Source: a virus. Taken from it: DNA of 64,000 nucleotides. The notes under the pieces are model-generated. The model ran no database searches. It was not told the DNA's origin and saw nothing but the letters and a program-made list of their open reading frames with translations. Positions 24,882-44,325 of the stretch are shown here, piece after piece (within the stretch, counting starts at the first letter, position 1; every line of letters begins with the position of its first letter). The position numbers and the translations under genes are program-made. Location: positions 81,427 through 145,426 of IMG/VR virus record IMGVR_UViG_3300027714_000004, one strand, 5' to 3'.

Positions 24882-27074
24882 ATGACTAGACAAATCATAG
24901 GATTAGGTGCTGCTGCCAACAATAATAGTGGTGATACCCTACGAGCAGCTGGTAATAAGATTAATGATAATTTCAATGAAATCTATTCCCTACTTGAACT
25001 TACAGGTACAGATGGGACTGGAGTAACTCTTGCAGACTTAGAGTCTCTTATTGGTACATCGGTAGATAGCGCCCTAGGTTCTAGTAACTTGACTGGTGAC
25101 CTCGCAGCACTTGTTGAGACCAACCAAGCAGACATTACGTATATCTTATCACAACTTACCACTGTTCAAGGATTGATTGATAGTGATACAGATGCGAGTG
25201 CCACAGCACGTGCAGATTTGTTAACCTATATCGATGTTAATGGAATCGACATCACGGTACTTTCTCAAGACATCGTAGACCTTAAAGTAACTCTAGAGAA
25301 TAGTATTGCCGCTGCAAACAGTACTCTAACTGCACGTATCGACCAAACCGAAGATTCTCTTACTGTACTTGCATCTGATGTAACTGCATTGGAAGTACAA
25401 ACATCGACCGACCTTGGTGATGCAGTGTCTGCCGCAACAAGTTCATTGACTACCCGTATTGATGCAACTGATGAATCGTATTCAGTCATAGCGTCCGATG
25501 TCACTGACTTGAAAGTTGGTTTAGCACTAATTGACTCCGACTTCATATCTGGGATCGCAGGCGCTACTGCTAACACCACACTCTTAGCTCGTCTTGACGC
25601 TAACTCTGATTCGATAAGTACGCTATCCGGACAATACACAAACCTCGGTACGACTCTTGATATCTTGGATAGTGGTGCAGTAACAACAATAGCCGCAGAT
25701 GCGGATAAGGTACTGGAAGCAAGCATCACCGTGACAACAGATGGTAAAATAGCTGTAGTTAGTAAAAGTGTAACCGATCTTACAACTATTCTGAAGGATA
25801 GTGAAAACGGAACTGTTTTAACAGGTAGTGCTGTAAACGCACTATCTACTCGTCTTGACGCAGATAGTAACAAGATGTCTAGTGTAAGTGAGTCCTTAAC
25901 CACTCTTACCGCTACTTTGAAGGATAGTCCTAATGGTACAATCCTCACTGGTAGTGCATTATCTTCACTATCTGCCGCAGTGTATGATTCTGAAAATGGT
26001 ATTGGGTCTTTAAGTTCGGACATCGTCAGTCTAAACAATTCGTTAAAAGACAGTCCTAATGGAACTCTCATTAGTGCTAGTGCGGTATCTAGTTTAACTT
26101 CAGCAGTATTTCATGACTCCACTGGTCTTTCATCATTAAACAGTGACTTCACTGAGTTGAAGGGAACCCTAGGAGATTCGACAGGTGGAATTATTGCTAG
26201 TGTAGCAGCATTCGAAAGATTATCAGCTGACCTAAATTACAACTCTGATACTGGTACCACTTCCATAGATGCTAGTAAACTAACTAACTTGTCAGCTGCG
26301 ATTGGAGACACAGTAAACGCAAGCGGTAGTGATGAATTATCAATATTATTATATGATAATTCTGATGGTGTTGGTGCACTGGGTACAAAGTTAACTACTC
26401 TAACCAATACCCTGAAGGATAGTCCTAATGGTACAGTACTCTCTGGTAGTGCGGTATCAGGACTTACCTCTCGTATGGATGCGGATAGTGCTAGCCTTTC
26501 AGTATTAAACAGCGACTACACTAGGTTGAAGGGTACCCTAGAAGATTTGTCAACTGGACTTTTTGCTGAGGTCGAAGCACTAGAAGAATTGACTTCTAAG
26601 ATAGTATTGGACTCTGCCGGAAACCTCGTAGTATCTGCTTCGAGTATTACTGACCTATCATCAACGATTGGTGGTGTTGTTTCTTCGGCAACATCTGGTA
26701 TGATTACTTCTGCCACTTTAGCGGCAGCATTAGATAGTGGTGATCACGTTCCAGACCTAACATCCAAATACTTCGTCAACTTGAATGCCGGAGTCTTTGC
26801 AGGGTTCGAACTATTAAGTGGTGCTTCGGTATCATCTCTCGTTATGAGTGTAAATGACTTTAAGGTACAGACACCAAGTGGTGACAACACCCCCTTTAGT
26901 GTTAACACTGAGGACGGTATTGTTGAGATGGAGAATGTACGACTTAAAGGTGAACTAGATATTGAACAAACGGTTGCTGGCGAAGGTACGTTGAAGATAG
27001 ACAATCAGACGATAGTAATCAAAGACGCTTTGGGAAATGATCGTGTTAGATTCGGTAAACTAACACCAACTTAA
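24882..27074 (+). CDS. Baseplate-attached coiled-coil fibre with a gp9/gp10-type N-terminus and a J-like (DUF1983-like) C-terminus
   Basis: IGLGAAANNNSGDTLRAAGNKINDNF; repeated LKDSPNGT units; PFSV...RVRFGKL end. Confidence 0.65.
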   Translation: MTRQIIGLGAAANNNSGDTLRAAGNKINDNFNEIYSLLELTGTDGTGVTLADLESLIGTSVDSALGSSNLTGDLAALVETNQADITYILSQLTTVQGLIDSDTDASATARADLLTYIDVNGIDITVLSQDIVDLKVTLENSIAAANSTLTARIDQTEDSLTVLASDVTALEVQTSTDLGDAVSAATSSLTTRIDATDESYSVIASDVTDLKVGLALIDSDFISGIAGATANTTLLARLDANSDSISTLSGQYTNLGTTLDILDSGAVTTIAADADKVLEASITVTTDGKIAVVSKSVTDLTTILKDSENGTVLTGSAVNALSTRLDADSNKMSSVSESLTTLTATLKDSPNGTILTGSALSSLSAAVYDSENGIGSLSSDIVSLNNSLKDSPNGTLISASAVSSLTSAVFHDSTGLSSLNSDFTELKGTLGDSTGGIIASVAAFERLSADLNYNSDTGTTSIDASKLTNLSAAIGDTVNASGSDELSILLYDNSDGVGALGTKLTTLTNTLKDSPNGTVLSGSAVSGLTSRMDADSASLSVLNSDYTRLKGTLEDLSTGLFAEVEALEELTSKIVLDSAGNLVVSASSITDLSSTIGGVVSSATSGMITSATLAAALDSGDHVPDLTSKYFVNLNAGVFAGFELLSGASVSSLVMSVNDFKVQTPSGDNTPFSVNTEDGIVEMENVRLKGELDIEQTVAGEGTLKIDNQTIVIKDALGNDRVRFGKLTPT

Positions 27075-27091
27075 TCTAAGGAGATTATACG

Positions 27092-27406
27092 ATGTCTAAT
27101 TATGGAATGGAAATTATAAGTCCAGATAGTGACGGTAATGGTAACTCGATAGTATCGCGAGTTGTTTTCTCCGATAGTATTAGAACCTCCAATATCCAAC
27201 TACACGAGACAATATCCTTGGCCAAGAATACAAGTACATTTATCTCTTGTCTAGATGCTAACGATCCCTCTAAAATAATAATCACCTTTGAACAGGCCCG
27301 TGGTTTTGTTATAAGTAACAAGACCCCTCTTGGGTTTACAGTAACTAATGAATACCAGTACATGAACACTCTTACTGGTACAGTCATCGCAGTGAGAATT
27401 GGATAA
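27092..27406 (+). CDS. Small fibre-tip accessory protein (MSNYGMEI)
   Basis: AAGGAG RBS; paralogous in position and N-terminus to 39981-40355. Confidence 0.6.
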   Translation: MSNYGMEIISPDSDGNGNSIVSRVVFSDSIRTSNIQLHETISLAKNTSTFISCLDANDPSKIIITFEQARGFVISNKTPLGFTVTNEYQYMNTLTGTVIAVRIG

Positions 27407-30400
27407 TGTCATACGGATTAAAAATTACGGGAAACGATGATGGCGGTAACTTCACGGTTGCCGACACTGATCTAGGCATGGTCAACTTAGTAGTTACCGA
27501 TGTCGGTAGAGCATCGTCCTTCAATCTTGTAGGGGGTATTCAGCCGGGCGACTATATTTACGTGAGATATCCTTCTGCGCCTGGCGGTGGAGGGTATACT
27601 CCTATACAGATGGGAGAAGGTCTATCAGCGGTTCAGATAGATAGACCTTTAATCTATAATATAGATGCTGTCTTAGTTGCGGGTTCCCCTACCTCAGACA
27701 TGACCATAAACTTTAAAGGTTCCGCATGGAAGTGGCTTAATTCTCCTAATTCATATCAATCTGATACACTCTACACATACAATGATTTCGTAGTAGATAT
27801 GGATTACTTTGTAGTCCGTAAGGCTTCTACCATCAATGCACTGGGATTGGACACCTCAGAGGATTACGGTTTCCAACTACTCAACGTAGACAGTGTATCT
27901 GGTGCTAGTGAAATCGCACTTGATTCCAGAAGTTTTACCTCTGACAAAACCTTTTACATAGAAGGGTATCTGCCCCCAGACAATAACTTCGGCGAGATAA
28001 ATGGCAATTCTACCACGTTATCCTATACAGATGGTTGTTACGTCAATCTAGAATGGTCTGCCAGATCAGCGGTTCCTTTCTTTCCGTCCTTCGGAGCAGC
28101 ACCCCTTCTCGGACTTTCTATCACGGATACTATGGCATATAGTATTGACGGAGATACTACTATAGTAGGTGGTGGTGGAGAACCAGAATTACGAATCTGG
28201 TCTAGTTATAATGCAATATTTGCAGCTAAACTAGGAGCGGGTATATCTTCTTCCACACCACCCAATGAGTCAGGTGGTGGTACTGTAACTCCTCCACCAA
28301 CTGAACCCAACGAAATCACAGGTACAATCGACTACGTATCTGGAAACACTGTGACCGAAGGTAACACAATATCCTTTAACGCAGTAACGTCTGTATCATC
28401 CAATTACCACACTCGCGTCTTTAGACTGTCTGGGTCGGCAGGGGATGCAGGAAAAGATTTCAATACCGTAACATCTCCATTCACCGGAACCTCCCATACC
28501 GTGACGTTGAGCACATATGACACGAGCTCTGGTCAACAGACATTTAATAATATCTATAGTCAGGGTTATGTCGGAACTTACTCTAGAGACAGAGTATCTG
28601 CCTACACAAGAGAAGTAGCAGCTTCGTATAGTAGAACCTTCGTTGGCAACTTCATTGGTAACTATTCAGGTACTACTTCTTACCAGACCGACTTCTCTAG
28701 TAACTATAATCAAACGGTTGATTACACAAGAACTATTTCGCGTACCGAATCATTCATCGGTAACTATTCACGTTCGAGATTAGCGGTATCCACACGAACT
28801 TCTATATACTCTAGAAATATATCGTATACCGGAAACTTCCTAGGGAACTATGCAGGAGCATACTCAAGAACTCGTACAAAAACTTCCTCCTACACCAGAG
28901 ATTTTTCTAGGACGGACTCATATACGGGTAATTATGAAGCTTCGCGGGTGCTTTATGAAGGTGGTGATGAAGTTACCTTCCCACTATTCTTCGTTTCATA
29001 TTACTCTAGAGTCAGACCCTCTTCATTTGCGGGTACCTACACACGAAATAGAGCAGACAGTAATTCATACACAGGGTACTATAGTAGAACCAGTACCAGA
29101 ACAGTACCTGCTTCATATCTAGGAACGTACAGTAGAAACAGAGTAAGTACATATGCTAGGTCTAGAGCAACCAGTGGTTCCCAAGTATTGACCTTCAATG
29201 GTACATACACTCGATACTTTTCTGGTGCTTACAGTCGGACAGGTTACTATTCAGGAGCATACACAGCATTTTATACCGGAAACTTTGGGCAGACAGCAGA
29301 TTACTCTAGATTTCGTCAAGTATCCTTTACAGGAAACTATAGCAGGAACGTTACATCTACCAATACCTTCTCTCGTAGTTTCACTAATACTACCCCGTAC
29401 TCGTCGGCGTATAGTCGTACGACCACGGGTACCATTACGGATCCAGCGTCCACGAGGAACGTTAATTACTCTAGGTCTTTCGTAGGGGACTATGCGAACA
29501 CTGGTACCTTTATGGGTAACTTTGTAGGAAACTACCTTAGGTATTTTACAAGAAACGTAGGTTACGCTAGAACCACCGTTGGATATCAGTATCTCCCAAC
29601 TCCTAGAACCTACTGGTACGAGTATCCACATGCAGAACAGATTGACGAGCCAGGGGGCCCTCCCGCTATTCTCCTACGACATATCGTAGTTTATGTCGGT
29701 AACGTAATTGTTGCAACAGGAATATCTTCGAGCCTTAATCCCACAACATATCTTTTATCGGGTGGTGTATATTACCATAAAGGTTCTCTTAATTATTCTT
29801 CAGCAGGTGATCAGACTTACTTTAGTATTGGTCAGAGTCTTGATGGTGGGCCACCGTCAGCGGGAACATCGTATTACACTAGAACCGGATACTATGCAAG
29901 TTCTTACGCGGGTGCCTATGCAAGAACATTTGCTGGGACTGGTACCTTTTCAAGATCTCGTCTAATGGAATATTCAAGAGTCGTTCCATATACTTTGGTT
30001 CGTACTAGTACCTATACTGGGTATTACTCTAGAAGTTATACCTCAGGCGCAGTGAGAACTGCTTCATATACTGCGTACTATGCTGGCACAGCATCATATA
30101 CTAGAAACCGTGCGGCTACCTACGGAGGAAACTACACGGGTGCTGCTGTAAGTTACATATATGATCCCGAATCTGGACAGTCAAGAGTTGTATCTCCATT
30201 CTCATCACGTCAACGTATTGCTTACTATTCGGGTACCTACACAAGAGGTCTTAGTTATAGCAGAAATAGACCAATGTCCTATGCAGGAGCATACACCAGA
30301 ACTAGCGCATACTCTGCAAGTTACGTAGGGAACTACAGCAGAACTTTATCGGATAGTTATTCGGGGACATATGCCAATACCTATATCGGTAACTATACTG

Positions 30401-31452
30401 GAGCATACTCTAGAACTATCACTCAAGGTACGACATTCACAGGTAACTATGCGGGTACAGGAACACAGAACTTCACGGGTACATATTCTAGATGGACTAC
30501 GAATAGCTTCACCCGAACCCGATTACATACTATTACCAGAACCAGTTCATACTCAAGAGGCCTTTCCTTCATAGGGGAGTATACCGGAATGTATACGCGG
30601 GATAGTGTGATAACTAGACCATCTACTCTGGACTACAATGGAATTGCAATATTCACAGAGAATTTTGCGGGAGAATACACCAGAAATAGTGGTAGTGGAT
30701 TTACGAAACTCTCTACGTATTCTAGAACAAATAGTTTTCTGGGTAATTATATCGGAAACTTTTCTAGAACAGAAACTGGTACTCCAGAGTCTACTAGAAA
30801 CAGAACCAGTTCATACACAAGGACTGGGGGAGCTAGTTACGAGAGAAATATAGTAGACAGTTATGTGGGTACATACATTGGTAATTACACGGGCGCATCA
30901 ACTCGCACACCATCCAATACTTCTGAGATTGGTTGGCAGGGAGAGAGGTTCGTTATCGAATTGAGAAGAGGTTCGGACGCTACTTCTATAGCTGCGGCAA
31001 GAGGGACTATACCAGCATTGGATTCAAAGGAGTTTACTCTTATTGATAATGATACTGGTCTATTTGTAGCTATGTCTCCTCAAGTGTTGCACCATACCGC
31101 AACCCAACACGAACTTGTATTTGACTTCTTCACCGAAGGTACGTCAGTGGTTCCTGCTAGAATTTATAGAGGTTCCTCAATACTAGTTAACTCGTTCAAC
31201 TTGGTATCTAATCAAAGAAATTCGGTGATGGTGAATGAAGTCCCACCGGAAGGTTCTAATTACATTTACACTCTGAAGGTGTTCGATGGTTCGAGTTGGG
31301 TATTGTCGTCATACTATCAGGTAACTAAAGTAACCGATACTGACTATACACCCCCAACAGATGGCGGTGGCGCCCCGACTCCGACCTATACTGCTCCCAC
31401 TCCTGCTTATTATACGGGTGGTACACCCTCACCACCAAGCAACGAAAATTAA
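27406..31452 (+). CDS. Giant fibre/adhesin with a mirror-complementary Y/F-S/T-R-G repeat hairpin
   Basis: MSYGLKI N-domain; split Calx-beta/Ig-like domain; about 790-aa insert with a central non-repetitive tip. Confidence 0.75.
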   Translation: MSYGLKITGNDDGGNFTVADTDLGMVNLVVTDVGRASSFNLVGGIQPGDYIYVRYPSAPGGGGYTPIQMGEGLSAVQIDRPLIYNIDAVLVAGSPTSDMTINFKGSAWKWLNSPNSYQSDTLYTYNDFVVDMDYFVVRKASTINALGLDTSEDYGFQLLNVDSVSGASEIALDSRSFTSDKTFYIEGYLPPDNNFGEINGNSTTLSYTDGCYVNLEWSARSAVPFFPSFGAAPLLGLSITDTMAYSIDGDTTIVGGGGEPELRIWSSYNAIFAAKLGAGISSSTPPNESGGGTVTPPPTEPNEITGTIDYVSGNTVTEGNTISFNAVTSVSSNYHTRVFRLSGSAGDAGKDFNTVTSPFTGTSHTVTLSTYDTSSGQQTFNNIYSQGYVGTYSRDRVSAYTREVAASYSRTFVGNFIGNYSGTTSYQTDFSSNYNQTVDYTRTISRTESFIGNYSRSRLAVSTRTSIYSRNISYTGNFLGNYAGAYSRTRTKTSSYTRDFSRTDSYTGNYEASRVLYEGGDEVTFPLFFVSYYSRVRPSSFAGTYTRNRADSNSYTGYYSRTSTRTVPASYLGTYSRNRVSTYARSRATSGSQVLTFNGTYTRYFSGAYSRTGYYSGAYTAFYTGNFGQTADYSRFRQVSFTGNYSRNVTSTNTFSRSFTNTTPYSSAYSRTTTGTITDPASTRNVNYSRSFVGDYANTGTFMGNFVGNYLRYFTRNVGYARTTVGYQYLPTPRTYWYEYPHAEQIDEPGGPPAILLRHIVVYVGNVIVATGISSSLNPTTYLLSGGVYYHKGSLNYSSAGDQTYFSIGQSLDGGPPSAGTSYYTRTGYYASSYAGAYARTFAGTGTFSRSRLMEYSRVVPYTLVRTSTYTGYYSRSYTSGAVRTASYTAYYAGTASYTRNRAATYGGNYTGAAVSYIYDPESGQSRVVSPFSSRQRIAYYSGTYTRGLSYSRNRPMSYAGAYTRTSAYSASYVGNYSRTLSDSYSGTYANTYIGNYTGAYSRTITQGTTFTGNYAGTGTQNFTGTYSRWTTNSFTRTRLHTITRTSSYSRGLSFIGEYTGMYTRDSVITRPSTLDYNGIAIFTENFAGEYTRNSGSGFTKLSTYSRTNSFLGNYIGNFSRTETGTPESTRNRTSSYTRTGGASYERNIVDSYVGTYIGNYTGASTRTPSNTSEIGWQGERFVIELRRGSDATSIAAARGTIPALDSKEFTLIDNDTGLFVAMSPQVLHHTATQHELVFDFFTEGTSVVPARIYRGSSILVNSFNLVSNQRNSVMVNEVPPEGSNYIYTLKVFDGSSWVLSSYYQVTKVTDTDYTPPTDGGGAPTPTYTAPTPAYYTGGTPSPPSNEN

Positions 31453-31477: not shown

Positions 31478-31485
31478 TATAAATA
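31478..31485 (+). promoter_or_regulatory. Late promoter TATAAATA
   Basis: Exact intergenic consensus. Confidence 0.75.
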
Positions 31486-31514: not shown

Positions 31515-31994
31515 ATGAACTTGAAACTTGTAGTATATGTAACAATCGATACTGGAAAGATATCTAGAATCGCATTACCCAACCATAATATAGATGCCGA
31601 AGGTGTCTCTGAAGATGGAACTTTGCGTATTATCCATATACATGAAGGTAATGTACCTGAAGGATGTAATGATCTAAGATACTTCCTAGACTATCACTGG
31701 TACGACCAAGAGACCGAATCTTTTGAGTTTATCGGACTACCACCTAATCGTCATGCTGAATGGAGTTCTGCGGACGGTTGGACTTGGGACGAAGATCTAC
31801 TGTTGCAAGACATTCTCCTAGAAAGAACCAAATTCTTATTTGCCTCCGATTGGACTCAGGCATTAGACGTTCCCCTAACAGAATCCAAACTCCAAGAGTG
31901 GAGAGACTATAGACAGGCATTGAGAGATCTCTCGACTAATGTCGGAAGTGTGTCTTCAGTGTCAGAAGTTGTTTGGCCAACAGTACCGAATTAA
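31515..31994 (+). CDS. Tail fibre assembly chaperone-like protein
   Basis: R...L..SDWTQ..D.P......W..YRQALRDL...WP..P motif. Confidence 0.8.
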   Translation: MNLKLVVYVTIDTGKISRIALPNHNIDAEGVSEDGTLRIIHIHEGNVPEGCNDLRYFLDYHWYDQETESFEFIGLPPNRHAEWSSADGWTWDEDLLLQDILLERTKFLFASDWTQALDVPLTESKLQEWRDYRQALRDLSTNVGSVSSVSEVVWPTVPN

Positions 31995-33354: not shown

Positions 33355-36300
33355 ATGGCAGAATTTACAAATAAAACGTTCGAAGAAACATATCGCGATT
33401 TTTATAAGGCCGAAGACGGTTATCATAAGGTATTGTTTAACTCCGGACGTGCACTACAAGCACGTGAACTTATCGAGTCACAGACAATCATCCAAGAAGA
33501 GATTGCACGGTTCGGTCGTAACATATTCAAAGAAGGTGCTCTGGTAAATCCAGGCGGCGCCACCGTGAATAACCAACTAGAATATATTCGTCTAACGGCA
33601 GCTGCTGTTATCGATACGGACTTGGTGGGCAAAACGCTAACCAACGGAACTATCGAAATGAAAGTTCTAGAAGTTGTTGAAGCTGACCTCATTGATCCCG
33701 TTACTACTTTGTACGTACAGTACACAGACACATCTCTTATCGTCGATACTACTAAAGCACCTCGTGTATCTTCACTAGACATCTTGCTTCGCGTTGATGC
33801 TCTGACCACCACGGTTCTTACTGTCATTGATGATAGCAGTGATCCTATTCCTGCATCTGGACTCGGAACTAAAGCATACTTCTCTGCGGGTGACTTCTTT
33901 GTTCAAGGACACTTTGTCTATATGGAAGGTGGTAGTTCTTTCATCGACAAGTATAGCAAATCTCCTACAACTGATATTGGTTTCTTAATCGAACAGAATA
34001 TCATCACTGAAGGTGAAGATGTTGACCTATACGACAATCAGGGTCAGGTTCCTAACCAGACTGCGCCTGGCGCACATCGTTATCAGATCAAGTTGGTTCC
34101 TACTACTAGAGATCAAGTTCTGGTAGAAGAGAACTTTGTATTCATAGCACGTGTTGTTGACGGTGTCATTACTCGTGAAGTCAGTACATTCGACGGATAC
34201 AACCGAATCAATGACCTTCTCGCCCAGCGCACAAAAGAAGAATCTGGTAACTACGTTGTCGATGAGTTCAAAGCAATCTTTGAAGAGAATGTTCTTGACG
34301 ATACTCTACTCACCCTAGATGTGACCGAAGGTATCGCTTATGTTGATGGTTACAGACTAGAGATTGGTACGACTGATATTCCTGTTGATAAAGCAAGAGA
34401 TCTTATTACCAAAACAAACGAACCAGTACCTGCCGCATATGGTAACTATGTTTATATTGACGAGGCTGCCTCTGAAGGTTTTGGTCGATTTGACGAGTTC
34501 GGTTATGTAAGACTCAAGACTTCTTTAAATAATACCATAGGTTATGCTAACGTACGTGGCGTACAACGAGATGCAGTTGGTACAAGAGTATATATCTTCA
34601 ACATCCGTATGAATGACATTTTCGACGGTGGTACTGGTGACAAGATTGGTGTAGAGAGTTTCTCTAATGTTACTCAGTTTGATGATCCTTTCCCCGGCTA
34701 TGCTGGTACTCCTCCAGTAACAGTCTTGGTAAATAGTATTATATACGAAGCATCAGATAATAGCTTGTTGTTCCCTTTACCTAGGACTAGTCCTTCGACA
34801 ACCCCCTTCACTAGTAACTACACAGTTCAGCGATATACTAGACAGATTGCATCCGGTAGTGGTGAGATTAGTCTCTCAGGTGTTGAATCTACTGGATGGG
34901 TAATTTGTGAGACTGCTGGGCCAATCCTGGCTGTCTCTCCGAGCATATCGGGTACATATACCGGACTAACTCCTAACCTATCACACGATATTGCTTATTA
35001 CGTAGAACTCAGTAATGTCCAATCACGTACTAAACAAATTACTACGATAGAGACGGTGACATCTCTTCCAAGTGTAGACTATCAAAAAAGACCTATATTC
35101 ACTGGAGAGGTTGATGGTATCGCCCTACAATCTGTTAAGTTCCGAGACAGTGTTGCTACTGCTTGGGTAGATGCAGAAGACATCACTCACCAGTTCATCT
35201 TCGATGGTGGTCAACGTGATAACTTCTATGACCAAGTAGTTGTGTACCTTAAATCAGGATACTTACTCCCTACAGGAGCAAATCATGAGACACAGGCAAT
35301 CTTCACTCACTATGATCATCAAGACGACGGAGTGTACTTTTCGTCAAGTTCATATGTAGATGATACATATGAAACTATTCCAGACCATACTACTGCAACA
35401 GGTACAGTGATTTCTCTACGTGACGTATTGGATTTCCGTCCTACAAGAAAATTTACTTACACCGGAGAGTTTGATGTAACCGCAGAACTTCCTCAGAACG
35501 CGTCTGCTATCACGATCAACACTATACAATATTATCTATCTCGTATTGACATCCTCGTTGCCAATGCAACTGATAGTCGAGGAGAGATCGGATTTGGTGA
35601 GCTACAGGTTATTCGAGGGGAATCTAACATAGACCCACGTGAACCCGAAATACCAACGGGTTCTATGGCATTGTACAAGTTCCGATTGAATCCATATACC
35701 TTTAATTCATCTGATCTCGTAAGCACTTATATTCCAAACAAGCGTTTCACGATGAAAGATATCGGTAAACTGGAACGCCGCGTCGAAGACCTATACGAAC
35801 TGACCACGTTGAGTCTACTAGAGTCTAACACTAACTCATTGACTGTATTGGATGCCAATGGTAATGCAAGAACCAAAGCTGGTTTCATCGCAGATAACTT
35901 TAGCACATTCACTTTTTCTGATATTGATAATCCGCAATACCGAGCATCTATAGATCCACAGGGTCTATTGAAACCGTCATTCCGTGAAAACTCAGTTCGA
36001 CTGGCGTACAGTACCGACAATGTTAATGCTGTTGAGAAACATGGTGACCTAGTAACCCTACCATATTCGGATGCTCCTCTGGTATCACAGTTGCTTGCGA
36101 CCGATACTATGAATGTAAATCCATTTGCGGTTCTTACACAAACTGGACACATGGATCTTTCTCCATCTTCGGATGAGTGGGTAGAGACACGTAACCTACC
36201 AAATGTTATGCAAACTACGGTACGTCGATTCGAGACTCCACGTACACGTCCTGCTTTAAGGAATAATAGAAATAGTAACAACTTCACAAACGATGGTCTG

Positions 36301-38667
36301 TTTACTACGATATCCAGAGACATTTCGTTCAGAGAGACAAACCTCAGTATCCAAGACTTCATTGGCGAACAGATATTGGACGTTGAGATTATCCCGTTCA
36401 TGAGATCTCGTGTAGTTAACTTTGCGGCCAAAGGACTACGTCCAAACACTAAGATGTTCGCATTCTTAGGTAATAAGGACATGAGTTCATGGGTAAGACA
36501 AGAAACCTCTTCATCTAGATTCTCGGATAACCCCCAAGAGTTCGGTAGTCAGTATGCGAACGCAACTGAATATCCTGCTGTATTTGGTGGCCCAACTCTT
36601 CTAGTGACAGATGCCAACGGTGAATTATCAGGTAGTTTCTTCGTACCTAATACAACCGCCATTAACTTCCGAACTGGTAAGCAAGAGTTTAAACTCCTTG
36701 ACATTAGTGTTAATGACAATGATGAATCAACATCGTTGACTCGTGCAACCTATACCTCTACAGGTTCAATTGAGGGTGTACAGCGAACTGTACGTTCCAC
36801 ACGACTTGTTGATCTCCGTGCTGGTAGATTAGATCCTCTTGCACAGACATTCTTTGTCGACCAAATAGAGAACCCTAACGGACTGTTTATAACTAAGGCA
36901 CGTGTCTTTGTAGATACTAAAGATGACACTATCCCTTTACAGGTACAGATTCGTTCGGTAGAGAACGGTATACCGACCACACGTATCATTCCAGGCTCAG
37001 TTAAGTTCATCGATCCTAGTTCAATATCAATCCCAACTAACAGTGTTAGTGGTGATGGAACAAGCGTTGCGACTACAATTGAAGATGTTCAGGCATCTCC
37101 GACAATAGTTGAATTTGACGAACCAATTTACTTGACAAGTGGCGAAGAATATGCGATAATACTACTCGCTGAGTCGGAGCAGTATAACGTATACATTGCT
37201 GAGACTTATCAGAATGTATTCGGTTCACGTGAAGATAGAATAACAAAACAACCTACTCTAGGTTCTCTATTCTTATCACAGAACGGATTCACTTGGACAC
37301 CAGACCAAACTAAAGACTTAATGTTCGAATTAGATCGTGCAGAGTTTGTTGCTTCAGGTGATCTAATTCTTGACAATTCTCCGTTACCGAAAGTTACTCT
37401 AGGAAGTGATCCACTCGAAACTACTTCTGGTAGTCCAACAGTCAGAGTATACCACGAAGGTCATGGTCTAAGTCACAATGATAGTGTTTCTATCGCAGAC
37501 GTAGCCAATGCAATCGGTGGACTAGCTTCTTCGGTATTCGAAGGTACCTTTACCGTATCTACCCCATCATGGGATGGTTATAACATCACTGTTGCATCTA
37601 ACGCAACTTCATCAGCAAAAGGTGGTGGTGATGATGTAACACTTTCTCAACAAGTAGTGTATGATGATTTCGTACCACAGATACAGACTATTGTACCTAA
37701 CTCCACAAGCATTACTGCGAAGTTGTTACAACCAACCGTCTCGTCTTATGGCAGTACTCGATCAACTACGCGGTTTTTATATGGTTTACCTGCTGGATGG
37801 TCATTCGCAAAGTCAGTCTTCTTGAACAACTACAACTCTAATGTATCACCGAGTGTTGTTGCATCGTCAGAGAACGCTGGTGGTTCAGAGACTATGAAGT
37901 TTAACTTGAGTATGTCTACAGACGATACCAAGGTCTCTCCGGTAGTTGATCTTCAACGAGTATCTGTATTAGCTCTAGAGAATGTCATTGACACTATCGA
38001 TGCTGCACAACATATTACAGTACCTGTTATCATAGATGAATCTTCGGCGGGGGTGAAAGTTATATTTTCCGCTAATCGACCATCAACTGCCAACTTCGAA
38101 GTGTATATGAAATCCGCAGTAAACGAAGATGCATTGGTCTCAACAGACGACGATGGTGTATTTACAACAGAATGGGTACAAGCTAGTATAGACAAAGAAT
38201 TACCTTCGGACGATAACCCAGAAACTTTCCGTGACTACGAATATACACTTGACACAAACCAGTTCACTGCGTTCCAAGTTAAGATTGTAATGCACTCTAC
38301 TAACAGTTCTAAGTCTCCGGTCATAAGAGACTTACGTGCTATTGCATTGATAACAGGTAGTGGTGGAACTATTGGAGATCCTGCTCCACTCCAGAGTTTA
38401 AGTCTAGCTCCGCAGAATACCGCATTAGGAACTACTGTAGCTGATCCTGCTATTGATCCTGCTATTGATCCAGTAGTTGATCCAGTAGTCGATCCAGTAG
38501 TCGATCCAGTAGTCGATCCAGTAGTCGATCCAGTAGTCGATCCAGTCGATACTGGAACAACCCCTGACGGCGGTGGAGACTCTGGTGATGATGGAGAGGG
38601 GGAAACTCCTATTGAGGATGAAGGACTACCCACAGACCCCGTTAGCGGAGACCTAAACCCAGATTAA
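33355..38667 (+). CDS. Large virion structural protein (VrlC-like / DUF4815)
   Basis: KVLFNSGRALQAREL...Q, APGAHRY, RFTMKDIGKLE.R...L and DPLAQTF motifs. Confidence 0.85.
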   Translation: MAEFTNKTFEETYRDFYKAEDGYHKVLFNSGRALQARELIESQTIIQEEIARFGRNIFKEGALVNPGGATVNNQLEYIRLTAAAVIDTDLVGKTLTNGTIEMKVLEVVEADLIDPVTTLYVQYTDTSLIVDTTKAPRVSSLDILLRVDALTTTVLTVIDDSSDPIPASGLGTKAYFSAGDFFVQGHFVYMEGGSSFIDKYSKSPTTDIGFLIEQNIITEGEDVDLYDNQGQVPNQTAPGAHRYQIKLVPTTRDQVLVEENFVFIARVVDGVITREVSTFDGYNRINDLLAQRTKEESGNYVVDEFKAIFEENVLDDTLLTLDVTEGIAYVDGYRLEIGTTDIPVDKARDLITKTNEPVPAAYGNYVYIDEAASEGFGRFDEFGYVRLKTSLNNTIGYANVRGVQRDAVGTRVYIFNIRMNDIFDGGTGDKIGVESFSNVTQFDDPFPGYAGTPPVTVLVNSIIYEASDNSLLFPLPRTSPSTTPFTSNYTVQRYTRQIASGSGEISLSGVESTGWVICETAGPILAVSPSISGTYTGLTPNLSHDIAYYVELSNVQSRTKQITTIETVTSLPSVDYQKRPIFTGEVDGIALQSVKFRDSVATAWVDAEDITHQFIFDGGQRDNFYDQVVVYLKSGYLLPTGANHETQAIFTHYDHQDDGVYFSSSSYVDDTYETIPDHTTATGTVISLRDVLDFRPTRKFTYTGEFDVTAELPQNASAITINTIQYYLSRIDILVANATDSRGEIGFGELQVIRGESNIDPREPEIPTGSMALYKFRLNPYTFNSSDLVSTYIPNKRFTMKDIGKLERRVEDLYELTTLSLLESNTNSLTVLDANGNARTKAGFIADNFSTFTFSDIDNPQYRASIDPQGLLKPSFRENSVRLAYSTDNVNAVEKHGDLVTLPYSDAPLVSQLLATDTMNVNPFAVLTQTGHMDLSPSSDEWVETRNLPNVMQTTVRRFETPRTRPALRNNRNSNNFTNDGLFTTISRDISFRETNLSIQDFIGEQILDVEIIPFMRSRVVNFAAKGLRPNTKMFAFLGNKDMSSWVRQETSSSRFSDNPQEFGSQYANATEYPAVFGGPTLLVTDANGELSGSFFVPNTTAINFRTGKQEFKLLDISVNDNDESTSLTRATYTSTGSIEGVQRTVRSTRLVDLRAGRLDPLAQTFFVDQIENPNGLFITKARVFVDTKDDTIPLQVQIRSVENGIPTTRIIPGSVKFIDPSSISIPTNSVSGDGTSVATTIEDVQASPTIVEFDEPIYLTSGEEYAIILLAESEQYNVYIAETYQNVFGSREDRITKQPTLGSLFLSQNGFTWTPDQTKDLMFELDRAEFVASGDLILDNSPLPKVTLGSDPLETTSGSPTVRVYHEGHGLSHNDSVSIADVANAIGGLASSVFEGTFTVSTPSWDGYNITVASNATSSAKGGGDDVTLSQQVVYDDFVPQIQTIVPNSTSITAKLLQPTVSSYGSTRSTTRFLYGLPAGWSFAKSVFLNNYNSNVSPSVVASSENAGGSETMKFNLSMSTDDTKVSPVVDLQRVSVLALENVIDTIDAAQHITVPVIIDESSAGVKVIFSANRPSTANFEVYMKSAVNEDALVSTDDDGVFTTEWVQASIDKELPSDDNPETFRDYEYTLDTNQFTAFQVKIVMHSTNSSKSPVIRDLRAIALITGSGGTIGDPAPLQSLSLAPQNTALGTTVADPAIDPAIDPVVDPVVDPVVDPVVDPVVDPVVDPVDTGTTPDGGGDSGDDGEGETPIEDEGLPTDPVSGDLNPD
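38443..38550 (+). repeat. 12-bp tandem repeat encoding (DPAI)2(DPVV)6
   Basis: GATCCAGTAGTC units are directly visible. Confidence 0.9.
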
Positions 38668-38670
38668 ACT

Positions 38671-38910
38671 ATGAATAATCATCAAAGAGTAGAAGGTCAT
38701 AACAACTTAGTACGGGATAGGCGAACTGGTGTTGTCCTAAATAACAATAAGACTGAAATCGAAAACGCAAGAAAACTAAGTATAATACAACAAGAAAAAG
38801 AGGATCATATCAACACTCTTACTAATGAGATAGACTCACTAAGAACAGATATGGATCAAATAAAAGAATTGCTTTTTCGTTTAGTAAAGGATAAAGAAGA
38901 TGGCAGATAA
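38671..38910 (+). CDS. Small coiled-coil protein typically found after VrlC-like genes
   Basis: VEGHNNLVRD..TG..LN motif plus a C-terminal coiled coil. Confidence 0.7.
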   Translation: MNNHQRVEGHNNLVRDRRTGVVLNNNKTEIENARKLSIIQQEKEDHINTLTNEIDSLRTDMDQIKELLFRLVKDKEDGR

Positions 38911-39979
38911 TATACAAGTAGTACATCTCGCAGATAACATCAATGCGGCATTCGATAAGATCAATGAGAACTTTGAATTGGTTGCGACAGGTGCCTTTGG
39001 TGGGGGTGGTGATAGTAGTAGTACAGATTACTCCGATCTAGAAGCTGGCATTCTAGCAAACGCAACTGCGATCACTGGGATAGGGACAAGTATCACCAAT
39101 ATAGGTGGGAACATTAGTATTGTTTCCTCTCAGTACACTGACTTGAGTGCTACCGTTGGCGGTCTGGTATTTGGTGGAATTGATTCCGGTGTTCTTACTA
39201 GTGCGATTGCTACTGCCAACACTCAACTCGTTGCACGAATAGATGCCACTGAGAACAGTATCTCTGTATTGTCTGGAGACTACACTAACCTAAATGTGTC
39301 ATTGAATCAAATTCTCTCGGATGGTATTACCCTTACTCCAGAACAGGTAACCTCAGCCGTTGGTGGTGCTCTAGAAGCACTGACTACACGTATAAATCTA
39401 GATAGTGATAGGCTAGTGATCGAAGGACAAAAGATTGTAAATCTTACCGCAGAAGTATTTACTGTTGATGCTGGTGGTAATACAGTTAACGCAATTAGTA
39501 ATGCTACTAATCTTCTGCAACAGTCTATCAACATTGTCAACGGAAGAATATATGCAGCAGACGCAATAATGAAGACCGAATTAGAAACTAAGATCGGTAC
39601 TGACATTGCGACTGCGTCTTCAACTCTACAGACTCAGATCAATAACTTGGGTGGAACAACTGCAACATGGAATCTTGACCTAGTTGCTGGTACAGAGTCC
39701 AACCCACACATTGCTGGTATAAAGTTCGGTAATGACGGTGCAACCGCAGATTTCGCGTTGACCGCAGACACCTTCCGAATTGTAAATGCTACTAATAATG
39801 AGATTCAACCATTCACTGTTTCTGGTAATGAAGTCCAATTGTCAAATGCAACAGTTACGGGAAATCTAAATATAGGTTCAAACCTCAGTGGTGCGCATAC
39901 CGAAATTAAAGATGATGTCATCAAGGTGTTTGACCCAACTGGACAACTACGAGTTAAACTAGGCAACTTGGCCGGATAA
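38900..39979 (+). CDS. Coiled-coil fibre with a J-like (DUF1983-like) C-terminus, paralogue of 24882-27074
   Basis: AFDKINENF; IAGI.FG......F...ADTF.I; PFTV; RVKLGNL. Confidence 0.65.
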   Translation: MADNIQVVHLADNINAAFDKINENFELVATGAFGGGGDSSSTDYSDLEAGILANATAITGIGTSITNIGGNISIVSSQYTDLSATVGGLVFGGIDSGVLTSAIATANTQLVARIDATENSISVLSGDYTNLNVSLNQILSDGITLTPEQVTSAVGGALEALTTRINLDSDRLVIEGQKIVNLTAEVFTVDAGGNTVNAISNATNLLQQSINIVNGRIYAADAIMKTELETKIGTDIATASSTLQTQINNLGGTTATWNLDLVAGTESNPHIAGIKFGNDGATADFALTADTFRIVNATNNEIQPFTVSGNEVQLSNATVTGNLNIGSNLSGAHTEIKDDVIKVFDPTGQLRVKLGNLAG

Positions 39980-39980
39980 T

Positions 39981-40355
39981 ATGAGTTATGGATTAGAAAT
40001 ACGCAATTCGTCAGGGACTGTTATAGTCAACGAATTTAGCAATCTAGGGTCTCTTGTGGCACATGGTGTCATTTCAGCAGACAATGCTAAATACGATTCC
40101 GCGGCTGCCGCTAATCCTAATTGGGCATTAAATCCTATCTGGTTTGCTCCTGCTTGGTTCGCTTATGGTGAACGTGCTGCTATAACTATAAGTGTTCCTG
40201 ATTATATAAATGATGCTCAGTATCATGCAATCGTCTCAGGCCCGTCATCTTTATTTGTTTCGGGAGCAGAAGTTATAAGTACGTCCACTGGTAGTATAAC
40301 CGTTAAAAGAAATGATAAATTTGATGCATATTTTTATATTGTGAGAAAGGGATGA
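39981..40355 (+). CDS. Small fibre-tip accessory protein (MSYGLEI)
   Basis: MSYG N-terminus after a J-like C-terminus. Confidence 0.6.
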   Translation: MSYGLEIRNSSGTVIVNEFSNLGSLVAHGVISADNAKYDSAAAANPNWALNPIWFAPAWFAYGERAAITISVPDYINDAQYHAIVSGPSSLFVSGAEVISTSTGSITVKRNDKFDAYFYIVRKG

Positions 40356-41074
40356 GTTACGGACTACAGATAAAAAACGGATCCAATAATATTATTATTG
40401 ACGAAGCCTTTAAGAATTTTCAGATTGCTGCGATTGGTACATCAGCAGCCGGTACAGCTTTGCCAATCACAGGCAACCTTATGACGGAGGGTGGTTTGGT
40501 CTTTGCTAAACCAAGTGGAGTTAACACAAGCGATTCCGCTGGATGGCATATCGGTATAGAGATGAACTTTTACTCTGCTCACACAGGACAGTTCGATGTG
40601 AACCTGACCAGTACGTATTCTGGTGGTGTTGATAGATCAACCTCTGCAATAACATCCCCCAATCTTGGTAAGCAAGCTCCTAATATAGATTGGATATACA
40701 TAAAACCTTCGGCAACCCCAACAAGTACGGAATATGGATTGGAAGTATATGCCGCAGATGGCACTATGTCTTTCTCATCTGAAGTTAGTGGTATGTTCAA
40801 TATAATTTCAACTGCGGTAAGTAACCCCAGTACTAAGTCCGGTAACCACTTTTTCACTCCTTGGTACGCAGGATCTGGACGAGACGTGTTTGATTGTTAC
40901 GTATGTATCGGGAACTTCCTACACTTCCATATCTCCTCGACGACTTGGGGATGGGCGCATACTGCGAAGTGGCAGTCATCCGGTAATAAGTTGACATTGA
41001 TTCAACCAGACTGGGTGTATCCTAATAACACAGTCCCTGCAATGTATCTCATGGGACAACTGTCGGGTAACTAA
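40352..41074 (+). CDS. Fibre-tip adhesin-like protein (MSYGLQI...YGLEVY)
   Basis: Duplicated YGL motif, as in the N-domain of 27406-31452. Confidence 0.6.
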   Translation: MSYGLQIKNGSNNIIIDEAFKNFQIAAIGTSAAGTALPITGNLMTEGGLVFAKPSGVNTSDSAGWHIGIEMNFYSAHTGQFDVNLTSTYSGGVDRSTSAITSPNLGKQAPNIDWIYIKPSATPTSTEYGLEVYAADGTMSFSSEVSGMFNIISTAVSNPSTKSGNHFFTPWYAGSGRDVFDCYVCIGNFLHFHISSTTWGWAHTAKWQSSGNKLTLIQPDWVYPNNTVPAMYLMGQLSGN

Positions 41075-41110
41075 TTCGACAAATTAATTTAGTAAAGGAA
41101 CGTTTTAAAA

Positions 41111-41685: not shown

Positions 41686-44325
41686 GTGTCCGCATCCAGT
41701 ATACCCCTAAAAATTAAAAATAGCGCAGGTGACCTACAGGAATTCAGCCCCGAAGAAGAAATGTTTCTTGCGGTAAAATTGGGAGAGTCTTTATCAGAGT
41801 CTTCTGCTGGTGATATCGGAGACATTAGTCTAACGGGTGATGTTAATATAGGATCGTTTGTAGACACGTACTACAACGAAGTTACGGGTACTCACCCAGC
41901 ATCAAACATTACAGGAACTACCGTTACTACTACATTAAAACAGGTAGGTGGTTCTGCGTCAGAGACTGGATCAGATTTCATAAGACCTATAGGTTATTAT
42001 CAAAGCAGTTCAAATGCTGGATTCTACGATATGGTAGATCTAGATTTGAATAATTTAACAACTCGTGCACTGAGAACTGTTGAGACATTAGGTCTTCAGG
42101 GTACATTCGAATTATCATCAACTACGCCAGGCACTGATTGGGTAAAACATGTAGATAACGTGTTTACAGATACCATCGGTGACGGTACCTCGGTAGTATA
42201 CCATATTTGGAAACGTGTGACACTAGCAACTCCACCAGCGGGTCTAGCCACCGTACGACCAATGGCAACAACTTATGACGGATCTACCTTTGATGGGTTT
42301 AAAGAAATGTCAGACGATCAGATCAAGGCTACCCTTGGTCAACGTGCTAAAACTCTTCGAGCAACAGTAGGATCTATTGGTTCTTATCAGTTGCGTTCAT
42401 CCGCTCAAGGAGCTCCCACTTCAGCAGGTACTTGGGATGCACGTGGTTCTGCTACTAATACTCAACGAACCCTTGTTGACGCCGACTATTCTCGTACTCG
42501 TAATTCTGCATATACTCGCACTAGAGTTTCTGCATATTCACGTGATCGACAGTCTACATATACCCTAGACCGCACAGAATCATTCTCAAGGAATTTTACT
42601 GGTGACTTCGCTGGTACATATACTAGAGACTTCGCTGGTACATATACTAGCGATTTTACTGGAGTATATTCTAGAACTCGTCCTTCAACATATAGTCGTA
42701 GTAGACTAGAGGCATTCACTGGTTATTTTGCGGGTACTTATAATCGTGCACGAGTATCTACCTATACTAGTGATAGGATAGAAGGGTTCTCTTCAGCATA
42801 TTCACGTGCACGAGTATCTACCTATACACGTAGTCGTATTACCGACTTCGCTGGAAACTTCGTTGCAGGATATTCTAGAGGATTTGCTTCAGATTATTCG
42901 CGAACCTTTATCGGTGCATATTCATCTTCTTACTTTGGTGATTTTGTAGGAAACTATGCTCGTACTTCTACTCTAGTTTCCACACGCACTCGGTACTCTA
43001 CATACACACGAAATAGTATAACTAACACTCCCGTCTCTTATATGGGTAATTTCGTAGGGTATTATACTGGAGATTTCGCAAGTTCATACTCAAGAACTAC
43101 ATCGGGCACATATGCTCGGACGTTAGCATACTCTCGTACACTGTATTATACTGTTAGTTTCGTAGGAAACTTTTCTCGCGCAGCTGCGGGGTATTACACC
43201 GGAAACTATGCTCGTACACGAGATATGTCATATTGGGCATATTACGCTCGTAATATTGCTTACACAGGGTATTACTCTCGCAGCGCCAGTCAAGGTGCAT
43301 CATATTTCAGAAACATGGTGTCTACTCGTTTCCGATATGGTACTACCAGAAACGCTCAGGCATTTCCCAGCGACACCTCTCTCGACGGTAATTTAATTAT
43401 ACCTTGGTATTTTGCGGGGGACTTTGCAACTGCATTTGAATATGTTGCATACTACCCAGGCGGCACCTACACACGTTCAAGACTTGTCTCTAACACTTAT
43501 GCCAGAGTCATCCCCCTCTACTACGTGGGAAATTATAGTAGGACTGTAGGCGTTAACTACGTAGGTAACTATGCGAGAACGCGTGTAGCAAGCAGTCAAG
43601 GTACTGGTTACTATGCGACCACCTCAAACTACTCTTCTTCATACACGGGATATTACTCTAGAAACCAGACTCTTACTTATGCTGGTGCTTATGCACGAGC
43701 TCGTGCGAGTGTTGTACAAGATACATTTGTAGGTGACTACGCAAGAACATTTGCAGGTGCCTTCTCTAGTCAATTTGTTGGCGAATATACCACAACATCT
43801 ACAAGAACTCGATTAGCTTCGTTTGTCAGAAATAGAGTGCAGGCGTATACGAACACACGATCTTCGACATATTCTCGTGATCGTGTTGCTAATTTTGCAG
43901 GAGAGTTTACTGGTAACTACACAACAACATTCTCTGGAGACTATTCTCGAACCTTTGCTGGTAACTTTGTAGGTAACTATACCACAACCTTTATTGGTGA
44001 CTTTGCAGGAGCATATGCTAATACCTTTACAGGAGAATTTGTTGGAGACTTCACTACTAATTATGTAGGCAACTATAGTCGTGTACGTGTATCTGCGTAC
44101 GCTCGACTACGTACCTCAACCTATACTGGCCCTTACACAAGTGACCGCGCATCGACGTACATCGGAAATTTCACTTCGGACTACACGCGTGAATTTGTTG
44201 GAAACTATTCGAGAGATTTTGCTGGTCAATATTCACGTGCTTACCTCGGAAACTATACTGGTACAACTATTAGTGATGTGATCTATACCCCAGAAACATA
44301 TACCTTATACGTAAGGATTGCATAA
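41686..44325 (+). CDS. Virion protein with an about 590-aa mirror-complementary tetrapeptide-repeat hairpin
   Basis: About 268-aa N-domain, then period-4 aromatic repeats with antiparallel R/G complementarity. Confidence 0.75.
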   Translation: MSASSIPLKIKNSAGDLQEFSPEEEMFLAVKLGESLSESSAGDIGDISLTGDVNIGSFVDTYYNEVTGTHPASNITGTTVTTTLKQVGGSASETGSDFIRPIGYYQSSSNAGFYDMVDLDLNNLTTRALRTVETLGLQGTFELSSTTPGTDWVKHVDNVFTDTIGDGTSVVYHIWKRVTLATPPAGLATVRPMATTYDGSTFDGFKEMSDDQIKATLGQRAKTLRATVGSIGSYQLRSSAQGAPTSAGTWDARGSATNTQRTLVDADYSRTRNSAYTRTRVSAYSRDRQSTYTLDRTESFSRNFTGDFAGTYTRDFAGTYTSDFTGVYSRTRPSTYSRSRLEAFTGYFAGTYNRARVSTYTSDRIEGFSSAYSRARVSTYTRSRITDFAGNFVAGYSRGFASDYSRTFIGAYSSSYFGDFVGNYARTSTLVSTRTRYSTYTRNSITNTPVSYMGNFVGYYTGDFASSYSRTTSGTYARTLAYSRTLYYTVSFVGNFSRAAAGYYTGNYARTRDMSYWAYYARNIAYTGYYSRSASQGASYFRNMVSTRFRYGTTRNAQAFPSDTSLDGNLIIPWYFAGDFATAFEYVAYYPGGTYTRSRLVSNTYARVIPLYYVGNYSRTVGVNYVGNYARTRVASSQGTGYYATTSNYSSSYTGYYSRNQTLTYAGAYARARASVVQDTFVGDYARTFAGAFSSQFVGEYTTTSTRTRLASFVRNRVQAYTNTRSSTYSRDRVANFAGEFTGNYTTTFSGDYSRTFAGNFVGNYTTTFIGDFAGAYANTFTGEFVGDFTTNYVGNYSRVRVSAYARLRTSTYTGPYTSDRASTYIGNFTSDYTREFVGNYSRDFAGQYSRAYLGNYTGTTISDVIYTPETYTLYVRIA

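What the first reader, a model, noticed from the sequence alone, without database searches (positions are those of the whole stretch)
28351..31053. Second, larger mirror hairpin inserted in a loop of an Ig/Calx-beta-like domain, with a tip domain and side loops
Seen in sequence: ORF 27406-31452 has an N-arm (about 28540-29580, 347 aa) and a C-arm (about 29866-30912, 349 aa) flanking an about 95-aa non-repetitive tip. The same code holds: SRSR/AGEY, TGNF/VITR, SRTR/IGEY, TGNY/TRTR, SRVR/TGTY, TRNR/TGNY, ARSR/VGNY, SGAY/SRNR, TGNF/SRQR, SRFR/GGNY, VGDY/SRSR. Six-residue stutter units also face six-residue units (TRTSIY/NGIAIF, SQVLTF/TRTSAY, SRTGYY/TRGLSY, ANTGTF/AGTGTF, TRNVGY/TRTGYY). The register is looser in the outermost units. 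Each arm carries one unpaired bulge (VLYEGGDEVTFPLFF about 28948-28992; AAVSYIYDPESGQSRVVSPFS about 30142-30204), much like an RNA stem with bulges. The flanks V-T-E-G-N-T-I-S-F...DF...TVTLSTYD and QGERFVIELRRGS...LIDND look like two halves of one Calx-beta-like domain. If so, both ends of the about 790-aa insert must be adjacent in space, which independently supports the fold-back model.
Basis: partly seen in the sequence, partly recalled or inferred. Interest (0 to 1): 0.9.

Follow-up and report, generated by a model that had tools for sequence, protein, structure and literature searches.

The report
Self-pairing phage stalk in split domain
A tail-module protein of an uncultured marine T4-like phage carries a 799-residue insert whose two 350-residue halves match residue by residue in reverse order, so the chain almost certainly runs out to a small variable head and zips back into one loop of an Ig-like domain, a stalk of up to about 100 nm that evolves like an RNA stem (paired indels, bulges, swapped strands) and that I found described in no paper.

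Summary
Confirmed. In ORF 27406-31452, residues 373-1171 form two arms (351/349 aa) around a 99-aa tip. The arms pair on four gap-free antiparallel registers. Of 162 core pairs, 38 are aromatic-aromatic (17.7 expected), 21 Arg-Gly (10.9) and 0 Arg-Arg (7.1). A pairing matrix learned on distant relatives scores the protein about 10 SD above unit-shuffled controls. Across 31 homologues arm lengths co-vary (r=0.93) through equal indels at mirror sites. One lineage has swapped an ~85-residue strand pair between its arms. 'Calx-beta' membership is not shown (no Pfam hit even in insert-free relatives). AlphaFold2 could not model the arms, so the fold, the oligomer state and the function are inferred. 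Best reading: a virion stalk that projects a fast-evolving binding head. It works like the T4 gp37 needle or streptococcal antigen I/II but belongs to neither. The scan reported this class before in at least 21 other genomes, the split-domain form at least three times. No note I was shown describes the whole-strand swap.

The parts
27406..31452 (+). Whole gene, 1348 aa; third gene of a four-gene fibre module
   Evidence: about 30 full-length homologues at 30-56% identity
27406..28251 (+). N-terminal MSYGL-type domain (about residues 1-282), probably the attachment part; no family or solved relative
   Evidence: no Pfam/PHROG/PDB hit; shared with insert-free relatives; role inferred
28312..28521 (+). 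First half of the split Ig-like domain (residues 303-372)
   Evidence: AF2 pLDDT mostly 55-85; aligned with the second half as one sandwich; contiguous in insert-free alleles
28522..29574 (+). Outgoing arm (residues 373-723, 351 aa)
28936..29001 (+). Unpaired bulge of the outgoing arm (about residues 511-532; net 15 extra residues); probable small side hairpin with an acidic turn
   Evidence: register shift 1545 to 1560; similar bulges in most homologues; side-hairpin form inferred
29575..29871 (+). Tip domain (residues 724-822); in most comparisons the most variable part
   Evidence: pLDDT 45-81, beta-rich; 25-39% identity to homologues vs 45-78% for the split domain; relatives of the tip occur in stand-alone hairpin proteins
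29872..30918 (+). Returning arm (residues 823-1171, 349 aa)
30136..30204 (+). Unpaired bulge of the returning arm (about residues 911-933; net 17 extra residues)
   Evidence: register shift 1560 to 1543
30919..31047 (+). Second half of the split Ig-like domain (residues 1172-1214)
31048..31341 (+). Second, intact Ig-like domain (residues 1215-1312), followed by a Pro/Thr-rich tail
   Evidence: VIA Z 8.9 (rmsd 3.0, 93 aligned) to 8gul_A, many Ig-like rows at Z 6.5-8
24882..27074 (+). Upstream fibre gene with T4 gp9/10-like N-terminus (module gene 1)
   Evidence: PF07880 E=1.2e-5; phrog_677
27092..27406 (+). Small MSxYG protein (module gene 2)
   Evidence: conserved just upstream in filled and insert-free loci
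31515..31994 (+). Tail-fibre assembly chaperone-like gene (module gene 4), with a T4 late-promoter consensus at 31478
   Evidence: PF16778 E=1.8e-15; PHROG tail fibre assembly
41686..44325 (+). Stand-alone mirror-hairpin gene of the same code (879 aa, no Ig flanks); its family is the likely source of the insert
   Evidence: score 271 vs 155+-14 with the matrix learned on the other family; tip homology between the families

Best explanation
The protein is a virion accessory (adhesin-like) protein of the baseplate fibre module. Its N-terminal domain probably docks on the fibre (inferred). A hairpin cassette from the stand-alone hairpin gene family was inserted once into a surface loop of its first Ig-like domain. 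The chain leaves the domain, runs about 350 residues out, folds a 99-residue head and returns antiparallel, pairing residue i with residue (about 1545 - i), then completes the Ig domain. About 320 residue pairs give a stalk of at most about 105 nm (less if coiled). Alternate residues form one face on which Tyr faces Tyr, Phe faces Arg, and Arg lies over Gly; the other face is Thr/Ser/Asn/Ala. I favour a single-chain two-stranded beta ribbon stabilised by a continuous Arg/aromatic stack, with side bulges as small barbs. Its job would be to hold the variable head far from the baseplate for first contact with the host. Shown by sequence comparison: pairing register and code, insertion into one domain, co-evolving arm lengths, strand equivalence. 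Inferred: beta-ribbon geometry, single chain, virion location, host binding by the tip.
For: Register and code. The rules emerged from an aromatic-only start: cognate arms gave R-R -1.3 and F-R +3.4, against +2.6 to +3.1 and -0.3 to +0.5 in unit-shuffled training. Arm lengths r=0.93 over 260-456 and 215-474 aa (kin not independent). Equal indels at mirror sites in separate lineages: -52/-52, +38/+38, +22/+22, -18/-18. Reciprocal strand swap: P0008 outgoing 606-693 matches P0007 returning 1046-1134 (61/89 identical), and P0008 returning 925-1008 matches P0007 outgoing 606-689 (55/84). These segments are mirror partners in both proteins, while the rest of the genes is collinear at 83-87% DNA identity. 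Insert-free alleles at the same synteny (L021, L025); a fused-flank profile matches them without a break, E 1.8e-35 and 1.9e-31. 22 insert-free proteins in all; filled and insert-free forms are separated by one branch, SH-aLRT 100 (quick tree). AF2 joins the flanks (6vbu_9 Z 6.9, rmsd 3.4, 90 aligned; 8wae_A Z 6.4, rmsd 3.7, 96 aligned; intimin D0-D1 Z 8.5, rmsd 4.1, 176 aligned). No inverted DNA repeat in the gene. Tail context. For single chain: the core face is 22% Arg with about 1% acid, arms net +45, one His.
Against: AF2 gave no confident model of the arms (pLDDT <50), so beta-ribbon geometry rests on alternation and pair statistics only. Covariation cannot tell pairing within a chain from pairing between chains. 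A fibre-assembly chaperone gene follows, and phage fibres are usually trimers (own knowledge). A 100-nm two-stranded ribbon has no solved precedent that I found. There is no proteomics, imaging or known host. The tip has no family hit.
Confidence: 0.55

Rival explanations
1. Same fold-back register, but three chains wind into a six-stranded shaft like the T4 gp37 needle, with Arg side chains reaching out through the gaps left by partner Gly residues.
For: The topology matches gp37 (stem inserted in a base domain, tip inserted in the stem; PMC6957217). A gp38/Tfa-type chaperone gene lies directly downstream. A long aromatic face wants a partner.
Against: No His-x-His metal layers (one His in the arms). 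Six aromatics or three Arg per layer would be hard to pack without counter-ions (inference). The chaperone gene also follows insert-free alleles, so it is not specific to the hairpin. The base is an Ig-like sandwich, not a collar.
Confidence: 0.28
2. The arms pair between chains (the outgoing arm of one copy with the returning arm of another) or two ribbons zip face to face, giving a dimer or polymer.
For: Sequence covariation is blind to chain identity. The strand swap shows a two-fold-like equivalence of the arms.
Against: Both ends must close one small domain, and the register runs to the junction (373+1171=1544) and to the tip, which is most simply met within one chain.
Confidence: 0.09
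3. The stalk itself is the working part: a polycationic, Tyr/Arg-rich whisker that binds acidic polysaccharide or particles, and the tip is mainly a turn.
For: Net charge +45 over the arms, Arg almost without Lys. Some stand-alone hairpins have little or no tip (41686-44325). Length varies freely.
Against: The tip is a folded 99-aa domain kept in all filled alleles and is the fastest-changing part in most comparisons. The Arg residues obey a strict partner rule, as expected for structural use.
Confidence: 0.06
4. The symmetry is a by-product of low-complexity repeats or of DNA palindromy, and the region is disordered.
For: Both arms share one tetrad vocabulary, so any two arms align to some degree (non-cognate scores 160-250). 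AF2 confidence is low.
Against: z about 10 against unit shuffles. The cognate arm ranks in the top few for most proteins. Paired indels and the strand swap. No inverted DNA repeat.
Confidence: 0.02

Closest known systems
T4 long tail fibre tip, gp37 D10 collar + D11 needle (PMC6957217; PMC9659904)
   Same: An out-and-back antiparallel beta stem inserted in a base domain, with a small variable tip inserted in the stem; a chaperone gene follows.
   Different: The gp37 stem arms are 50 residues each (882-931, 960-1009) against 350 here. gp37 is non-repetitive, trimeric, held by seven His-bound irons and based on a collar fold. Here the arms are tetrad/hexamer repeats with a Tyr-Tyr, Phe-Arg, Arg-Gly code, no metal motif, side bulges and an Ig-like base.
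Streptococcal antigen I/II adhesins, SpaP/BspA (PMC7732690)
   Same: One chain runs out and back as two complementary repeat regions, lifting a variable domain over 50 nm, with Ig-like domains at the base.
   Different: There the arms are of different kinds (alanine-rich A repeats and proline-rich P repeats) and cannot be exchanged. Here both arms use one vocabulary, are exchangeable and are predicted beta. There is no sequence relation, and the host is a phage.
Split domains of RTX adhesins (PMC12077191)
   Same: [quoted passage not shown]
   Different: In RTX adhesins the binding domain buds directly from the split domain. Here a 350-residue-per-arm stalk lies between, and there are no RTX features.
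Stand-alone mirror-hairpin proteins (window 41686-44325; WJE88074 of Phage C48C1, OQ984149, annotated hypothetical)
   Same: Same units and pairing code; related tips (E 1e-10 between the P0017 tip and the C48C1 tip).
   Different: Different N-terminal domain and C-terminal strand, no Ig flanks; up to 3347 aa. They are uncharacterised too.

Membership tests
T4 gp37-type needle | Stem inserted into a base domain, tip inserted into the stem | tested here: met
T4 gp37-type needle | His-x-His iron-binding layers along the stem | tested here: not met
   one His in 699 arm residues
T4 gp37-type needle | Base domain has the gp10/11/12 collar fold | tested here: not met
   the modelled base aligns as an Ig-like sandwich; no collar family hit
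T4 gp37-type needle | Homotrimer, six-stranded shaft | tested here: inconclusive
   could not be settled with the models obtained
T4 gp37-type needle | Downstream gp38/Tfa-type chaperone gene | tested here: met
   PF16778 E=1.8e-15; also present after insert-free alleles
Calx-beta domain (PF03160) | Match to the Pfam profile | tested here: not met
   no hit for either flank, for contiguous insert-free domains or in the genome; the same search passed the cut-off in no control genome, so its power is limited
Calx-beta domain (PF03160) | Ig-like beta-sandwich fold | tested here: met
   model residues spanning both flanks align to single sandwiches at Z 6.4-6.9, 86-96 residues; a common fold, not specific to Calx-beta
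Calx-beta domain (PF03160) | Acidic calcium-binding loops | tested here: inconclusive
   acidic motifs are conserved at the junction and at the last strand; metal binding is not testable here
Antigen I/II stalk | Alanine-rich A repeats paired with proline-rich P repeats; LPxTG anchor | tested here: not met
   arms hold 12 Pro in 699 residues and are Thr/Ser/Tyr/Arg/Gly repeats
RTX adhesin split-domain unit | Ig-like domain interrupted by an insert whose ends are adjacent | tested here: met
RTX adhesin split-domain unit | Insert is a ligand-binding domain within an RTX/T1SS adhesin | tested here: not met
   phage tail gene, no RTX family hit; ligand binding by the tip not testable

The most novel reading that the evidence does not exclude
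A single polypeptide forms a two-stranded beta ribbon about 100 nm long by a digital residue-pairing code. It behaves as a portable cassette that can be plugged into an Ig loop, lengthened by paired indels, decorated with bulges and flipped strand for strand, as a nucleic-acid stem can. This would be a new class of programmable protein rod, used by abundant marine phages to reach hosts.
Probability: 0.5. Interest if true: 0.92.

Novelty: categorically new. Interest (0 to 1): 0.8.

Why it matters
Long phage fibres known to me are trimers whose chains run one way, with at most a short fold-back tip. This one encodes its own antiparallel partner in a code simple enough to read by eye, and AlphaFold2 cannot model it. 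If the structure holds, it adds a repeat fold, gives a natural rule set for designing length-tunable beta rods, and shows how a protein can co-evolve two distant segments through bulge-tolerant intermediates. It also gives a testable handle on how marine T4-like phages reach their hosts. The insert-free relatives and the cultured carrier of the sister family (Phage C48C1) make the tests practical.

Tried and rejected
AF2 of residues 290-1320 and of the inner hairpin 634-910: arms pLDDT under 50, uninformative. Complex prediction of three copies of 634-910: no verdict, score 0.00, no evidence either way. Foldseek against PDB and BFVD gave only generic Ig-rich matches. No fold match was seen for the tip or arms, but these parts were barely tested. 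Pfam, PHROG and PDB sequence searches of the protein, its flanks, tip and N-domain found nothing. The ESM Atlas gave no usable hit for the arms and only sub-0.9 leads for the insert-free domain. Pair percentages counted after aligning shuffled arms with the learned matrix do not separate real from shuffled, because the aligner imposes the code; I rely instead on scores, fixed diagonals and indels. A plain aromatic-only alignment with soft gaps missed part of the register. DNA palindromy was rejected. No relative was found in 185,579 prokaryote genomes by pattern scan (limited sensitivity). Literature searches for such a fibre, for C48C1 and for the host found nothing relevant; the library lacks most subscription papers. 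The careful tree did not finish, so the quick tree was used and it is unrooted: a single gain is the simpler reading, and a single loss is not excluded by the tree alone.
Full report
Setting. The window is the last 64 kb of a 145-kb, 88%-complete linear virus record with T4-type baseplate genes (gp6, gp8, gp9/10-like) and T4 late-promoter consensus sites (11 vs 3.9 expected). The only cultured phage with a matching protein is Phage C48C1 (OQ984149, Kyanoviridae, host not given). The ORF 27406-31452 (1348 aa, P0001) is the third gene of a module: fibre with gp9/10-like start, small MSxYG protein, this protein, fibre-assembly chaperone (PF16778, E=1.8e-15). It has no Pfam or PHROG match. About 30 full-length homologues at 30-56% identity exist in metagenomes, in the same gene order where loci were read.

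The observation. Cutting the repeat region at aromatic residues gives blocks whose lengths match in reverse order. Four constant anti-diagonals (i+j = 1545, 1560, 1543, 1544) cover about 320 residues per arm. On the alternate-residue face, 162 pairs comprise 38 aromatic-aromatic (17.7 expected), 21 Arg-Gly (10.9), 11 Phe-Arg (6.0), 0 Arg-Arg (7.1), 5 Tyr-Arg (16.4) and 3 Gly-aromatic (17.2). Because I chose these registers by hand, I slid each block over all other diagonals. For 384-510 the register is first of 223 by aromatic pairs alone and also first by Arg/Gly/Phe rules alone; for 533-627 it is first of 254 and tied first. Short blocks are less decisive. Independently, a 20x20 pairing matrix was learned by EM from an aromatic-only start on 19 distant homologues. 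It gave Gly-Arg +3.5, Phe-Arg +3.4 and Arg-Arg -1.3, whereas training on unit-shuffled arms gave Arg-Arg about +3 and Phe-Arg about 0. Held-out P0001 scores 217 against 74+-14 (500 shuffles, maximum 129). The unrelated-scaffold hairpin at 41686-44325 scores 271 against 155+-14 with the same matrix. The gene has no inverted DNA repeat, so the symmetry is at protein level. One correction: the outer part stays in register without gaps from residue 384; only its Arg-Gly share is lower.

Evolution behaves like an RNA stem. Arm lengths range over 260-456 and 215-474 residues and correlate at r=0.93 in 31 proteins (relatives are not independent). Close pairs from separate lineages differ by equal indels at mirror sites: -52/-52 (P0004/P0005, also P0001/P0005), +38/+38 (P0020/P0024), +22/+22 (P0018/P0022), -18/-18 (P0003/P0010). 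Some pairs are less tidy (P0023/P0015). Almost every homologue carries one to five unpaired loops of about 9-31 residues at varying places, mostly hydrophobic strands around an acidic Gly/Pro turn. P0008 and P0007 are collinear at 83-87% DNA identity except for one module. There, P0008's outgoing residues 606-693 match P0007's returning residues 1046-1134 (61/89 identical, 82% DNA), and P0008's returning 925-1008 match P0007's outgoing 606-689 (55/84, 75% DNA). The two segments are mirror partners in both proteins. Both forms were assembled several times independently (L005, L006, L014; L009-L012). A paired module therefore works either way round, as expected if the arms are equivalent antiparallel strands. 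Ectopic recombination among the 12-nt-based direct repeats is the likely route, with tolerated bulges as intermediates (inference).

The split domain. AF2 on residues 290-1320 modelled the flanks and tip with moderate confidence and the arms not at all. Structure searches aligned model ranges spanning both flanks to single sandwiches (6vbu_9 Z 6.9, 90 residues; 7pjj_A Z 6.4, 86; 8wae_A Z 6.4, 96) and both C-terminal domains to the tandem intimin D0-D1 (Z 8.5, 176 residues). These Z values show only a common Ig-like fold. The decisive result is natural. Loci L021 and L025 have the same module with a 641-648-aa third gene and no repeats. A profile of the fused flanks matches them without interruption (E 1.8e-35, 1.9e-31). 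A search from L021 gave 21 such proteins. In the 16 of these where both halves were detected, and in L025, exactly two residues stand where P0001 has 799 (373-1171); four more carry the contiguous domain in another protein context, and one is a fragment. On a tree of the insert-free columns, filled (32) and insert-free (17) proteins fall on the two sides of one branch (SH-aLRT 100; quick, unrooted). In L021 and L025 a stand-alone hairpin gene follows the chaperone gene directly, and tips are shared between the two families (P0017 tip vs C48C1 tip E=1e-10; weaker profile hits). A single capture of the cassette from that family is thus the simplest history. Calx-beta is a fair resemblance by motif, but PF03160 is not hit even by contiguous alleles.

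How it likely works. Alternation puts Tyr, Arg, Gly and Phe (74% of core residues) on one face and Thr, Ser, Asn and Ala (76%) on the other, which is the signature of beta strands. The pair rules read as steric and cation-pi complementarity: Arg lies over Gly between flanking aromatics, Phe meets Arg, Tyr meets Tyr (inference). 320 pairs give at most about 105 nm. The tip is 25-39% identical among homologues whose split domain is 45-78% identical, the pattern expected of a host-binding part. I favour a single-chain ribbon (0.55) over a gp37-like trimer (0.28): the core face is Arg-rich without acids or metal ligands, and the chaperone gene is not specific to filled alleles. This is not settled; AF2 failed on the arms. 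Taken together, my confidence in fold-back pairing as such is about 0.95.

Comparison and novelty. The topology recalls the gp37 needle (stem inserted in collar, tip inserted in stem; PMC6957217), antigen I/II (out-and-back stalk lifting a variable domain; PMC7732690) and RTX split domains (PMC12077191). Defining features of each fail here (His-iron layers, collar fold, A/P repeats, RTX context). I found no paper describing the repeat or its code, within the limits of the library. The scan has reported the class in at least 21 other genomes and the split-domain form at least three times; these unchecked notes are not evidence, and my score rests on the tests above. None of the summaries shown to me describes an exchange of whole strands between arms, though two mention 'swaps'.

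Verdict: a real and well-supported architecture whose atomic structure and function are untested. Categorically new as a kind of fibre; interest 0.8.

Noticed in passing
L003:16001-26044 (Phage C48C1, WJE88074): A cultured phage carries a 3347-aa stand-alone hairpin protein whose returning arm is interrupted by several globular domains; a ready object for imaging.
   Followed up: partly
window 41686-44325: Second mirror hairpin with the same code. Its C-terminal strand resembles the endings of the adhesin-like genes at 53626 and 54999 and, from memory, the strand that closes collar domains.
   Followed up: partly
window 44435-46324: Three genes that follow the stand-alone hairpin gene in every locus read far enough (L003, L017, L019); earlier notes call two of them a glycosyltransferase and an oxygenase. 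Not tested here.
   Followed up: no
window 38900-41566: A second four-gene fibre module with the same order; its third gene (240 aa) has only the MSYGL-type domain. Several loci carry two such small/large/chaperone sets in tandem (L016, L018, L024, L026).
   Followed up: partly
P0116-P0119 (967 aa): Proteins with tandem Ig-like repeats, one homologous to the uninterrupted split domain, ending in a Hint domain (PF05203 E=4.7e-7).
   Followed up: partly
P0007 (L010:6134-10831): Several tandem copies of a module in the outgoing arm are matched by several copies of its partner module in the returning arm.
   Followed up: partly
P0031: A stand-alone hairpin protein with a lectin-like domain and FG-GAP propeller repeats inserted in its N-terminal domain.
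   Followed up: no
window 33355-38667: The DUF4815 baseplate protein ends in a run of Pro-Val-Val-Asp repeats that the relatives read here lack.
   Followed up: no
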